Source: Escherichia coli
GTDB lineage: Bacteria; Pseudomonadota; Gammaproteobacteria; Enterobacterales; Enterobacteriaceae
Length of the DNA stretch: 27,357 nt
Reading direction: 5' to 3' (one strand)
NCBI RefSeq assembly: GCF_003334355.1
Contig: NZ_QOWP01000042.1
Shown here piece by piece: positions 1 to 3,000 of the stretch. A program made the position numbers. How positions within the stretch are numbered: the stretch's first letter is position 1; each line of letters begins with the position of its first letter.

Positions 1-3000
1 TCATCTGGAGCTTACAGGTGGCCATTCGTGGGACAGTATCCCTGACAGCCTACAAAACGCAATTGAAGAACGCGAGGCATCGTCTTAACGAGGCACCGAG
101 GCGTCGCATTCTTCAGATGGTTCAACCCTTAAGTTAGCGCTTATGGGAGTAATCCCCGCATATCCGGTTGTCAGGTCAGGATGGTAAGGCACCTGCTTTA
201 CACTTTCGCCCGTGGTCAGTGATGGCTGCGGGCGAATCGTACCAGATGTTGTCAATTAATCGTGTTGGCACAGCGTTATGACTATCTTTTCTTTTATCTG
301 CCAGTGCACAGCAAACATCTCATTCTCACGATGAATGATGACCTGCTGTTTATTCCAGCTAATTATCTGATAGTCCAGAAAACCTGCATCAGTTTGGATC
401 TCACTTGCCTTAAATGCGCTCTCTTTGGCGGAAAATGCCAGTGTCAGCGCCAGAGAAAAGGCTAAACCGCAGTCTGCGAGTCGCTCGTGTTCCGCTGGTG
501 TAATAATGTTGTCTGTCAATTCTCTTGCGGTTTGTACAGAAAAAATTTCTTCTATATCAATGCCAATCGGTTGACGAGATACCACGGCTAATGCCGTAGT
601 CCCACAGTGGCTAATACTGCCGTATACCTCCGCAGGCCAGACAGGTTGGCGTAGCTCGCCGATTGCGGGCACACATTTATAGCCATATTCCCGCAAAGCA
701 TAAACAGCAGCGATCCGTCCGGCTAAATGCTCTGTTTTACGTTTACGTCCAGCGTGTTGCAGTTGTGCGTAGTGCGGCAGCCAGAGTAAATCCTGCTCAC
801 AAAAATTCGCCGGATCGAACTCAACAAAATGCAGCGTATGTCCGGCAAAGGGGAGGGAGGTATGCGTAGTTTTCATATCGACCATATTCGAGACTGATGA
901 CAAACGCAAAACTGCCTGATGCGCTACGCTTATCAGGCCTACATGGTCCTGCAATATATTGAATTGGCAAGATTTTTGTAGGCCGGATAAGGCGTTCACG
1001 CCGCATCCGGCATGAACGACGCGCACTTTGTCAACAATCTGACGTTAGCATCAGAAGTGGGTGTTTACGCTCATATACCACGTACGTCCCGGCTCGTTAT
1101 AGGTATACGCCCCGGCACCGGCGATATAGTTGGCCCCTGCCAAATCGCCCGTGGTCTGGGCATTACCCGCACGCCACAAACGTTTGTCGAACAGATTGTC
1201 CACGCCGCCGGTCAGACTGACATTCTTCGTCACATCCCAGGTCGCGCTCAGGCCAACAATGCTGTAAGGACTAATTTCTTTGGTTTCCGGTCCAACCGCT
1301 GGCTGACCTTTATAGTTGTACTTCTTCGGCTGCTGCTTGCCGTACCAGGTGAAGGTCGTTTGCATCGACAAATCTTCCCGTGCCTGCCAGCTCAGCGTTG
1401 AGTTCAACGTATACTCCGGGATGATCGACAAACGGTCGCCCGTGGTTTTGTTTTCACTCTTCAGCATATAAGTGATGTTATTGGTCCACATCACCGTTTC
1501 GCTAACCGGTACGTTTAACGATCCTTCCAGACCTTCAACCACCGCTTTCGGCACGTTATCCCACTGATAGAGATCGGTGCCGACTGCGTTTTGCCCTACA
1601 GCCACATAGCCCGCTTCAATCTTATTGCGATAATCGTTACGGAACCAGGTGACGCCCGCCAGCCAGCCGTCGCGTTTGAACTCCAGACCAATCTCTTTGT
1701 TGATGCTGGTTTCTGCTTTCAGGTCATCGTTACCTTGCAGATAGCAGCCGCCCGCGCTGGCATAGCAACCCTGACCTTTACTGTAGAGAATGTAGTTCGG
1801 GTTAGTCTGGTACAGGCTCGGCGCTTTATAAGCACGGGCGATGCCCATTTTCAGCGTGAAGTCATCGCCTAAACCTTGCGATATGTTCAGCGCCGGGCTC
1901 CAGTTATTGCCGACAATACTGTGATGATCGAAACGCAGCCCCGGCGTTACGATGGTGCTGTCAGTCAGCTCCATGTTGTTTTCGGCAAACAGCGAGAAAA
2001 TTTCTGCTTTTGAATACGGGCTACGGTCGGTGGCACTCACGCCATCAATAGCGCCACCGGTATTCGTTCCGGTCAGTGCCTGGGTGTTGGAACTTAAGTC
2101 CTTCATCCGTTGCTGATTCCACTCCGTACCCAGCGTCAGCGTCTGGTTAACGAGGAAATCAATCGGCAGGTTAACTTCGCTATGCAGCATCACGTCATCA
2201 AGATCGATATCGACGAAATCCTGTGTCGCTTTTTCGTTAAATTTCCCTTCGGTACCGCCCGCCAGACCTTCCGGAATACGCGAGTTACGGGTGTGTTCGT
2301 ACTGCACCCAGTTGCTGGTGGTCACGCCGTTATCCCAGCCACCGTTCCAGGTCAGCGCGTAGTTCTGGCGATACAGACGGTTGGTTTCATCGCCATATTT
2401 CGAGCGGGTATAGGAATCGGAGTTGGTATTCTGGGTGTCGCCCGCATACAGGTTACCCTGGCGGCTGTAACCTGCTTCCAGTTCCAGCGATTGCAATGGC
2501 GCGAAATCCCAGCGCACCACGCCATTAATATCTTTGTTGATTACCCCTTCGCGCCCGGCTGGTAACGTCGTGGCATACGTTCCGGCACGCGCGGACTGAT
2601 GGCCCTGGTTGATATCCCACGCGTCAGCCTGGGTTTTGTCGAGGTTGCCATACAAACGGAAGCTGAATTCGTCGCCCAGCGGACCGGTCAGGCTAAAGTT
2701 AGTGCGTTTGGTGGCACCTTCCTCTTTATGTTCTGGCGCATTGAAATATGCGTCCCAGGAGCCGTGCCACTCGCCGCTGCCTTTTTTGGTAATGATGTTA
2801 ACCACGCCGCCCGCCGCGCCGTTGCCATAACGCGCAGCTGCCGGACCACGCAGAACTTCAATACGTTCAATCATTTCAGGTGGCACCCAGGAAGTATCAC
2901 CACGGGTATCGCGCTCGCCACGCCAGCCCTGACGCACCGAGTTACGGCTGCTTACCGGCTTGCCGTCAATCAAAATCAGCGTGTTTTCCGGACCCATACC

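What the first reader, a model, noticed from the sequence alone, without database searches (positions are those of the whole stretch)
914..1012. Inverted REP pair (BIME-like) between fepA and entD
Two REP units in opposite orientation lie between the fepA stop (1051) and the entD start (876). On the fepA-entD transcript they would form a stable stem-loop. That could stabilise upstream fepA mRNA and attenuate entD expression, consistent with the phosphopantetheinyl transferase being needed in small amounts.
Basis: partly seen in the sequence, partly recalled or inferred. Interest (0 to 1): 0.3.

Follow-up and report, generated by a model that had tools for sequence, protein, structure and literature searches.

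The report
Known BIME-1 repeat between fepA and entD
The two inverted REP repeats are real, but they are the core of a well-known ~153-bp mobile E. coli repeat (BIME-1) that fills the fepA–entD gap and folds into an RNA hairpin where published mapping finds a fepA transcript end, so this is an ordinary, already-understood kind of element.

Summary
A y-type REP (914-942) and a z-type REP (978-1011) lie in inverse orientation between the fepA stop (1051-1053) and the entD start (874-876) of E. coli K-12.

The element is larger than flagged. Independent genomic copies and "empty" alleles at sister loci show a discrete ~153-nt unit (window ~890-1042): outer inverted repeat, y REP, conserved L linker with an IHF-like site, z REP, outer inverted repeat. 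This is a canonical BIME-1 (RIB/RIP) element, leaving only 8 nt to fepA and 13 nt to entD.

On the fepA-sense RNA it folds strongly (-72 kcal/mol, z -6.3). Published Term-seq (Adams 2021) reports a 3' end at window 923, only in iron-poor M63 medium, 3 nt past the base of the predicted inter-REP hairpin.

fepA and entD are co-regulated. The per-kb mRNA drop across the element is only about 1.4-fold in one rich-medium dataset.

All Escherichia species sampled carry the element. Other genera have unrelated hairpins at the same junction.

Already known kind; low interest.

The parts
890..1042 (.). Complete BIME-1 repeat unit (~153 nt), a discrete insertion/deletion unit
   Evidence: Homology among 8 independent copies starts and stops here (A1). 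Non-fepA copies match spacer positions ~10-17 to ~161-166 at 84-92% identity. Empty versus filled alleles at dppA-dppB and cueO-gcd differ by 155-158 nt with the same ends, (A)AGACTGATG...CAATCTG(T/A).
891..904 (.). Outer inverted-repeat arm, entD side (AGACTGATGACAAA)
   Evidence: 12/14 complementary to 1027-1040 (I5). Conserved in all copies. Pairs as helix 1 in the RNA fold, 89% of cells paired across 13 copies.
914..942 (+). y-type REP (GCCTGATGCGCTACGCTTATCAGGCCTAC; the GTAG end is on the - strand and faces the linker)
   Evidence: Exact grammar match. Own hairpin -12.9 kcal/mol. E. albertii carries a compensatory G-C to A-U change at the outermost pair.
943..977 (.). L linker of BIME-1; contains the IHF-like site ATTCAATATATTG at 952-964 (- strand)
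   Evidence: Rfam RF02751 ES036 match at 935-976(-), 40.5 bits against a gathering score of 37.6; it is the only curated hit in the window. The linker alone recurs at a median of 11 places per E. coli genome. The IHF consensus is matched with 1 mismatch, and the core TTGA.T is invariant across copies.
978..1011 (-). z-type REP (GCCGGATGCGGCGTGAACGCCTTATCCGGCCTAC)
   Evidence: Exact grammar match. Own hairpin about -21 kcal/mol. Aligns to the first hairpin of Rfam naRNA4, which derives from REP325.
993..1018 (-). Alternative 10-11-bp hairpin formed by the 5' half of the z REP and its flank (CGUUCAUGCCG GAUG CGGCGUGAACG)
   Evidence: Inverted repeat I8. Part of the minimum-free-energy fold. One pair co-varies C-G / U-A (8 versus 4 copies, 1 unpaired) across copies.
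1027..1040 (.). Outer inverted-repeat arm, fepA side (TTTGTCAACAATCT)
923..923 (-). Experimentally mapped RNA 3' end (Term-seq, M63 glucose, OD 0.4)
   Evidence: Adams et al. 2021, PMC7815308, supp. files 1 and 3: position 610126(-), average read count 31462, 47 nt upstream of entD. The printed context sequence matches the window exactly. RNA ending here folds with the long inter-REP hairpin closing 3 nt from the end.
926..993 (-). Long inter-REP RNA hairpin (3' half of the z REP pairs with the 5' half of the y REP and encloses the L linker)
   Evidence: Minimum-free-energy and centroid structures. 95% of cells paired across 13 copies, but without compensatory changes (helix 4).
1051..1053 (-). 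fepA stop codon (TGA), 8 nt from the unit
874..876 (-). entD start codon (ATG), 13 nt from the unit; no clear Shine-Dalgarno sequence in CGAAUAUGGUCGAU
   Evidence: read directly from the sequence.

Best explanation
The feature is a complete BIME-1 (RIB/RIP) element, a ~153-bp non-autonomous mobile repeat of Escherichia: outer inverted repeat, y REP, L linker with an IHF-like site, z REP, outer inverted repeat. It occupies almost the whole fepA-entD spacer. It is transcribed as part of the Fur-controlled fepA-entD operon. In the RNA, the inner halves of the two REPs pair with each other around the linker, and the 5' half of the z REP pairs with its flank. Together these give a very stable structure just after fepA. 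Transcripts that terminate or are cut further downstream are trimmed by 3'-to-5' exonucleases back to this structure. That leaves a discrete, protected fepA 3' end (observed at window 923). Read-through transcripts carry entD. The net effect is a fepA message that outlasts or outnumbers the entD part (partial decoupling), and entD is further limited by a very weak ribosome-binding site. Shown: identity, extent, fold, the in vivo 3' end, co-regulation, and genus-wide conservation. Inferred: exonuclease trimming, stabilisation, and the size of any attenuation.
For: Identity and extent: checked against the published BIME-1 definition. Fold: -72.1 kcal/mol, z -6.3; the RNA ending at the mapped 3' end folds at -56.1 kcal/mol, z -6.1, with the hairpin closing 3 nt from the end. 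In vivo 3' end at 610126(-), only in M63, the condition in which the fepA promoter is derepressed. fepA and entD change together: log2FC 2.15 versus 2.19, and 1.01 versus 1.45; the literature treats them as one Fur operon. General mechanism shown elsewhere: REP325 stabilises the upstream gene and attenuates the downstream one; REP-separated tandem pairs are biased towards the upstream gene; stem-loops protect Rho-terminated 3' ends. Constraint: the unit is 94.8% identical between K-12 and E. albertii, against 74.5% and 71.0% at third-codon positions of fepA and entD. It is present in 5346 of 5426 E. coli genomes and in all 5 Escherichia species sampled, whereas sister copies at dppA-dppB and cueO-gcd are filled in only 60% and 50% of genomes. 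Every other genus sampled has a different strong hairpin at the same junction (median z -3.1; 82% below -2).
Against: No half-life, deletion or read-through measurement exists for this locus. The only abundance numbers I found suggest a per-kb fepA:entD ratio of about 1.4, from DESeq2 baseMean pooled over rich-medium samples at low expression, so attenuation may be small. Pair counts across 13 copies do not exceed shuffled controls and cannot tell the inter-REP fold from the two separate REP hairpins. The single E. albertii compensatory change supports the y REP's own hairpin, not the inter-REP helix. High conservation could reflect gene conversion among copies rather than selection. The msrA-paeA copy is almost as fixed (97.5%), so fixation is not special to this locus. 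The Term-seq end could come from endonucleolytic cleavage.
Confidence: 0.6

Rival explanations
1. It is selfish or neutral DNA. The BIME-1 is simply a mobile repeat that landed in a permissive intergenic gap in the Escherichia ancestor. The RNA 3' end is an incidental by-product of any stable hairpin, with no selected role in fepA/entD expression.
For: BIME-1 units behave as discrete insertion/deletion units and are absent from 40-50% of genomes at sister loci. The literature describes them as present/absent between strains and mostly in strain-specific loops. Related transposases (TnpA-REP/RAYT) act on REPs. The mRNA drop across the element is small.
Against: The element is genus-wide and 98.5% fixed in E. 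coli. It is much better conserved than neighbouring third-codon positions. Every other genus keeps some strong hairpin at this junction, and the Escherichia spacer has none apart from the BIME.
Confidence: 0.25
2. Its role is at the DNA level. The L linker binds IHF (the RIB/RIP property), and the element acts on local DNA bending or topology, or as a supercoiling barrier at the end of the strongly induced fepA gene, rather than through RNA.
For: An IHF-like site, ATTCAATATATTG, lies at 952-964 and is conserved across copies. The literature says the BIME-1 inter-REP sequence binds IHF and that BIMEs can block supercoil diffusion.
Against: The site has one mismatch, and such matches are not enriched in the window (26 found against 17.7 expected). 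Binding at this copy is untested. Gyrase targeting is a BIME-2 property. This role does not exclude the RNA role and does not explain the mapped RNA 3' end.
Confidence: 0.15
3. It is a true terminator that ends the fepA transcription unit, and entD is expressed mainly from its own promoter.
For: A discrete 3' end lies in the element. One paper says entD 'possesses its own promoters'. The y REP is followed by AGUUUUGCGUUUGU.
Against: The scan of 600-1400 found no sigma-70-like promoter and no intrinsic terminator. The 3' end lies inside the y REP, not after a U-tract. fepA and entD show near-identical fold-changes and similar per-kb abundance. The unit leaves only 13 nt upstream of entD.
Confidence: 0.07
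4. It is a small-RNA gene (Rfam ES036/CssrF) or a stop-codon-proximal REP that stalls terminating ribosomes on fepA.
For: The ES036 hit is above its gathering score. The outer stem starts 8 nt after the fepA stop codon.
Against: The ES036 match is the repeated L linker, present at about 11 places per genome, so it marks a repeat family, not a dedicated gene. No promoter was found. The REP proper begins 39 nt after the stop codon, outside the 15-nt class discussed for translational effects (abstract). The outer stem is weak and A-U rich.
Confidence: 0.03

Closest known systems
BIME-1 / RIB / RIP elements of E. coli (Gilson 1991; Boccard & Prentki 1993; Oppenheim 1993; Bachellier 1999, as summarised in PMC3333891, PMC1187871 and PMC2817692)
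   Same: One y and one z REP in inverse orientation, with the GTAG ends facing a long conserved L linker that carries an IHF-type site. Single copy, about 140-150 bp, extragenic, immediately 3' of a gene. Behaves as an insertion/deletion unit.
   Different: Nothing structural. This copy is unusually stable: it is genus-wide and 98.5% fixed, whereas many BIME-1 copies vary between strains.
REP325 in the yjdM-yjdN operon (bioRxiv 10.64898/2026.03.23.713779)
   Same: A REP element between two co-transcribed genes. It is shown to stabilise the upstream mRNA and to attenuate the downstream gene partly through Rho. This is the same working model as proposed here.
   Different: REP325 is a tandem array of six Y/Z2 units (BIME-2 type) and gives a ratio of about 35:1. 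Here there is a single BIME-1, and the apparent mRNA ratio is only about 1.4:1. No deletion data exist for fepA-entD.
REP stabilisers in the malE-malF and hisJ-hisQ operons (Newbury et al. 1987, cited in PMC6061677)
   Same: An intercistronic REP hairpin blocks 3'-to-5' exonucleases and gives differential expression within an operon (mechanism from established knowledge).
   Different: Those were tested genetically; this one has not been.
Protective stem-loops at Rho-dependent 3' ends (Dar & Sorek 2018, PMC6061677)
   Same: A steady-state 3' end a few nt after a stable stem with no U-tract; 24% of such ends lie at REPs.
   Different: Rho dependence is not assessed here: the BCM data were collected in LB, where fepA is repressed.
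REPIN/RAYT systems (REP doublets mobilised by a Y1 transposase)
   Same: An inverted REP doublet is the mobile unit.
   Different: No transposase gene is in the window. Mobilisation of BIME-1 by TnpA-REP was not tested here.

Membership tests
BIME-1 (RIB/RIP) | Contains a y-type REP with the conserved GTAG/CTAC tetranucleotide at the foot of an imperfect palindrome | tested here: met
   914-942 reads GCCTGATGCGCTACGCTTATCAGGCCTAC, with the AA bulge in the stem.
BIME-1 (RIB/RIP) | Contains a z-type REP in inverse orientation to the y REP | tested here: met
   978-1011 on the - strand reads GCCGGATGCGGCGTGAACGCCTTATCCGGCCTAC.
BIME-1 (RIB/RIP) | The z REP is of subtype Z1 rather than Z2 | tested here: inconclusive
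   No Z1/Z2 reference sequences were available in the tools. The core aligns equally well to the z hairpin of REP325/naRNA4, a Y/Z2 array. It is Z1 only by its association with the L linker.
BIME-1 (RIB/RIP) | A long, well-conserved L linker lies between the two REPs | tested here: met
   35-nt linker. Rfam ES036 hit above its gathering score. Median 11 places per genome. Conserved in 8 and 13 aligned copies.
BIME-1 (RIB/RIP) | The linker carries an IHF binding site | not testable with these tools
   The sequence ATTCAATATATTG (952-964, - strand) matches WATCAANNNNTTR with 1 mismatch and is conserved across copies. Binding itself was not tested.
BIME-1 (RIB/RIP) | Single copy (not tandemly amplified), about 140 bp, extragenic, at the 3' end of a gene | tested here: met
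   One unit of about 153 nt, 8 nt after the fepA stop. Sister copies lie 3-93 nt after dppA, artJ, msrA, cueO and yhaC. The ~140 bp size is.
BIME-1 (RIB/RIP) | Behaves as a discrete present/absent unit between strains | tested here: met
   Met for the family: empty alleles at dppA-dppB and cueO-gcd lack 155-158 nt. This particular copy is nearly fixed.
Intercistronic REP mRNA stabiliser / attenuator (functional class) | The element is co-transcribed with the upstream gene and marks a stable RNA 3' end at the foot of its hairpin | tested here: met
   Published Term-seq 3' end at window 923 on the fepA strand, in M63 only, 3 nt past the predicted stem.
Intercistronic REP mRNA stabiliser / attenuator (functional class) | Removing the element shortens the upstream mRNA half-life | not testable with these tools
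   No deletion or half-life data were found for this locus.
Intercistronic REP mRNA stabiliser / attenuator (functional class) | The downstream gene's mRNA is clearly lower than the upstream gene's | tested here: inconclusive
   baseMean is 347.6 (fepA, 2241 nt) and 67.0 (entD, 621 nt), which gives about 1.4-fold per kb. The data are pooled rich-medium samples at low expression.
Intrinsic (Rho-independent) terminator | A G+C-rich hairpin immediately followed by a U-tract, with the 3' end in the U-tract | tested here: not met
   The scan found none in 600-1400. The mapped 3' end lies inside the y REP, not in the AGUUUUGCGUUUGU tract that follows it.
Rfam RF02751 ES036 (CssrF) sRNA | Covariance-model score above the gathering threshold | tested here: met
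   40.5 bits against 37.6. The matched segment is the multi-copy L linker, so the hit identifies the repeat, not a dedicated sRNA gene.

The most novel reading that the evidence does not exclude
The fepA-entD junction needs a structured 3'-end module, and evolution has supplied it three times from unrelated parts: a short terminator-like CCCTCTCC/GGAGAGGG hairpin in Salmonella, Citrobacter, Kluyvera and Klebsiella; 1-3 tandem ~80-nt mosaic repeats in Enterobacter and Lelliottia; and a BIME-1 in Escherichia. On this reading the Escherichia BIME-1 is a domesticated mobile element held under purifying selection: genus-wide, 98.5% fixed, and evolving several times more slowly than neighbouring synonymous sites. 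It would set the ratio of the FepA receptor to the EntD phosphopantetheinyl transferase.
Probability: 0.3. Interest if true: 0.4.

Novelty: already known. Interest (0 to 1): 0.15.

Why it matters
It matters little for discovery. REP/BIME elements, their hairpins, and their stabiliser/attenuator effects inside operons have been known since the 1980s and were recently re-confirmed. The modest value lies in three things. First, there is a clean anatomy of this copy: the full 153-nt unit, with a published in vivo 3' end at the foot of the inter-REP hairpin. Second, unrelated hairpin elements occupy the same junction in different genera. Third, this copy is nearly fixed while sister copies vary between strains. 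Together these make the locus a convenient natural test case for asking whether a mobile repeat has been co-opted to tune expression within an iron-uptake operon.

Tried and rejected
1. My first REP consensus pattern missed even the true site. I replaced it with a looser grammar plus shuffles.
2. The IHF consensus alone is not significant in the window: 26 matches against 17.7 expected.
3. The promoter/terminator scan found nothing in 600-1400. It cannot see bulged stems, so it is weak negative evidence.
4. NC_000913.3 as held lists no repeat feature at this position, so I could not confirm prior annotation of this REP.
5. Covariation tests on 13 copies did not exceed shuffled controls for either alternative fold. 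I make no structure claim from covariation beyond two individual pairs.
6. The Rho-termination table of Adams 2021 has no entry here. An apparent '6102' hit was a decimal number, and the BCM data are from LB, where fepA is off.
7. The Dar & Sorek and Beauchene supplements are not held. The RepRanger supplements do not list the genes.
8. Gilson 1991 and Boccard & Prentki 1993 are not held. Searching for ES036 gave only irrelevant papers.
9. My recollection that Armstrong et al. 1989 and Coderre & Earhart 1989 already noted REPs upstream of entD, and that GenBank U00096/EcoCyc annotate a RIP element here, rests on memory only.
10. A second Term-seq row (624567-) has a context sequence that does not match the window at the expected coordinate. 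I did not use it. The 610126 row does match exactly.
11. The experimental-evolution 'fepA-entD' mutation (PMC10763504) lies in the fepA-fes promoter, not in this spacer.
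Full report
OBSERVATION. The window is 100% identical to E. coli K-12 MG1655; window x corresponds to NC_000913.3 x + 609203. A REP grammar finds exact units at 914-942 (+ strand, GCCTGATGCGCTACGCTTATCAGGCCTAC) and 978-1011 (- strand, GCCGGATGCGGCGTGAACGCCTTATCCGGCCTAC). There is one further solitary unit at 22725-22758. Shuffled windows give 0.015 hits on average. The GTAG/CTAC ends face each other across a 35-nt linker.

TRUE EXTENT. The linker alone recurs at a median of 11 places per genome in 5,426 complete E. coli genomes. Both flanks outside the REPs recur too, at a median of 5 places each. In the plasmid collection, copies that cannot be the fepA locus match spacer positions ~10-17 to ~161-166 at 84-92% identity. 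These are captured chromosomal segments from dppA-dppB, artJ-rlmC, msrA-paeA, cueO-gcd and yhaC-garK. Aligning eight copies shows that homology begins at window ~890 (GAGACTGATGACAAA...) and ends at ~1042 (...TTTGTCAACAATCTGA), with unrelated sequence beyond. Two sister loci vary between strains, and their empty alleles lack 155-158 nt with exactly these ends; at dppA-dppB the insert is flanked by an ATAC direct repeat. So the unit is about 153 nt: outer inverted repeat (891-904 / 1027-1040, 12 of 14 complementary), y REP, L linker, z REP. It leaves only 8 nt to the fepA stop and 13 nt to the entD ATG.

WHAT IT IS. The published definition of BIME-1 is one y and one z1 REP in inverse orientation, single copy, about 140 bp, separated by a long conserved L linker that often carries an IHF site, and usually present or absent between strains. 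Every feature I could test is met; see the membership table. The Z1 versus Z2 subtype could not be resolved. IHF binding cannot be tested here; the site ATTCAATATATTG (952-964) has one mismatch to the consensus and is conserved across copies. The only curated Rfam hit in the whole window is ES036/CssrF on the linker (40.5 bits against 37.6). Because that segment is multi-copy, the hit labels the repeat family rather than a dedicated sRNA gene.

EVOLUTION. A degenerate pattern for the FepA C-terminus retrieved 59 orthologous loci; entD was found downstream in 50 of them. All five Escherichia species or lineages (E. coli, E. albertii, E. whittamii and two unnamed) have a 173-174-nt spacer with the same BIME-1. 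Salmonella, Citrobacter, Kluyvera, Pluralibacter and Klebsiella have 37-69-nt spacers with a short CCCTCTCC...GGAGAGGG hairpin, often followed by a U-run. Enterobacter, Lelliottia and Pseudenterobacter carry one to three tandem ~80-nt mosaic repeats. The spacers are significantly structured almost everywhere: median z is -3.1, and 82% are below -2. The Escherichia spacer has no hairpin other than the BIME. The element is present in 5346 of 5426 E. coli genomes, against 60% and 50% occupancy at dppA-dppB and cueO-gcd and 97.5% at msrA-paeA. Between K-12 and E. albertii the unit is 94.8% identical, while third-codon positions of fepA and entD are 74.5% and 71.0% identical. This is compatible with purifying selection or with homogenisation by gene conversion.

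HOW IT LIKELY WORKS. The fepA-sense RNA of the spacer folds at -72.1 kcal/mol (z -6.3). In the preferred fold, the 5' half of the z REP pairs with its flank (993-1018). The 3' half of the z REP pairs with the 5' half of the y REP around the linker (926-993). The outer repeats pair with each other. The 3' half of the y REP is left single-stranded. Adams et al. 2021 (PMC7815308) list a Term-seq 3' end at 610126(-), which is window 923, with an average of 31,462 reads, only in the M63 minimal-medium sheet. The printed context sequence is identical to the window. RNA ending there folds with the inter-REP hairpin closing 3 nt from the terminus. Two other y-REP ends in the same table lie 5-6 nt after the y REP's own hairpin, so the position inside the y REP here fits the inter-REP fold. 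This is the expected signature of a 3' end protected from exonucleases. It matches the dual stabiliser/attenuator behaviour demonstrated for REP325 and the upstream bias of REP-separated tandem pairs. fepA and entD are co-regulated: log2FC is 2.15 versus 2.19 and 1.01 versus 1.45. Their per-kb abundance differs only about 1.4-fold in pooled rich-medium data. Attenuation at the RNA level is therefore probably modest. The near-absence of a Shine-Dalgarno sequence in the 13 nt before the entD ATG may contribute as much to a low EntD level (read from the sequence). Steps shown: identity, fold, in vivo 3' end, co-regulation. Steps inferred: trimming, stabilisation, and the size of the attenuation.

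RIVALS. The rivals are a neutral selfish insertion, a DNA-level IHF or topology role, a full terminator with an entD promoter, and an sRNA gene or stop-codon-proximal translational effect. They are weighed in the rivals section. The first two remain live and do not exclude the RNA role. No promoter or intrinsic terminator was found. Gyrase targeting is a BIME-2 property.

LIMITS. Pair-count tests on 13 copies do not exceed shuffled controls and cannot discriminate between the alternative folds. Only two pairs are informative: C-G / U-A at columns 34-51, and G-C to A-U in the E. albertii y REP. Rho dependence is untested under iron limitation. Prior description of REPs at this exact locus could not be verified in the held literature.

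VERDICT. This is a real, correctly spotted feature, but it is a textbook BIME-1 in a well-studied operon, with a plausible and partly supported textbook function. Already known; low interest.

Noticed in passing
window 22658-22758: The cstA-ybdD spacer holds a GC-rich boxC-like repeat (GGTTCCCCCTCACCCTAACCCTCTCCCCGATGGGGCGAGGGGAC) directly followed by a solitary z-type REP (22725-22758, - strand). The boxC-like hairpin resembles the CCCTCTCC/GGAGAGGG hairpins that occupy the fepA-entD junction in other genera.
   Followed up: partly
L003, L012, L038, L042, L046, L053 (fepA-entD spacers of Enterobacter, Pseudenterobacter and relatives): One to three tandem copies of a ~80-nt mosaic unit (AAAACGGCAACCCCGTTGCCGTTTTT hairpin plus CCCTCTCCCTGTGGGAGAGGGCCGGGGTGAGGGC) fill the fepA-entD spacer. 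This is a different repeat family at the same position as the Escherichia BIME-1.
   Followed up: partly
alignment A2 columns 34 and 51 (window 1015 and 998): Across BIME-1 copies, the flank base (TTCATGCC versus TTTATGCC) co-varies with the z-REP loop base (GCGTGAAC versus GCGTAAAC): C-G in 8 copies, U-A in 4, unpaired in 1. This supports an alternative hairpin made of the 5' half of the z REP and its flank. Two alleles of the same artJ-rlmC locus (L061, L067) differ in exactly this way.
   Followed up: partly
L069 (IAI39 dppA-dppB) and L070 (EC958 cueO-gcd) versus L063 and L065: Clean empty-site alleles of sister BIME-1 loci. At dppA-dppB the 157-nt difference is flanked by an ATAC direct repeat, which looks like a target-site duplication. 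At cueO-gcd the empty allele has TGG in place of the element.
   Followed up: partly
window 1-148: The window starts inside IS186B (NC_000913.3 608007-609351), which lies just downstream of entD in K-12.
   Followed up: no
window 800-1130 across 5,426 genomes: 80 genomes lack a match covering at least 80% of this stretch. The flank-only queries suggest that most of them lack the junction altogether rather than just the BIME (5355-5362 genomes have the flanks). I did not inspect them individually.
   Followed up: no
L034 (Escherichia sp. MOD1-EC7003): Its fepA-entD spacer is 100% identical to K-12, while its entD is only 84.9% identical at the nucleotide level. This suggests a recombination breakpoint at or near the element.
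   Followed up: no
window 15364 (expected from NC_000913.3 624567, - strand): The Term-seq table row for 624567(-) prints a boxC-like context sequence that is not present at that position in the window, which is the fepB leader. The row for 610126 matches exactly. The cause of the mismatch is unknown.
   Followed up: partly
window 12949 (NC_000913.3 622152, - strand): The same Term-seq table lists a strong 3' end 37 nt inside fepD in M63 medium, which may indicate premature termination or processing at the start of fepD.
   Followed up: no
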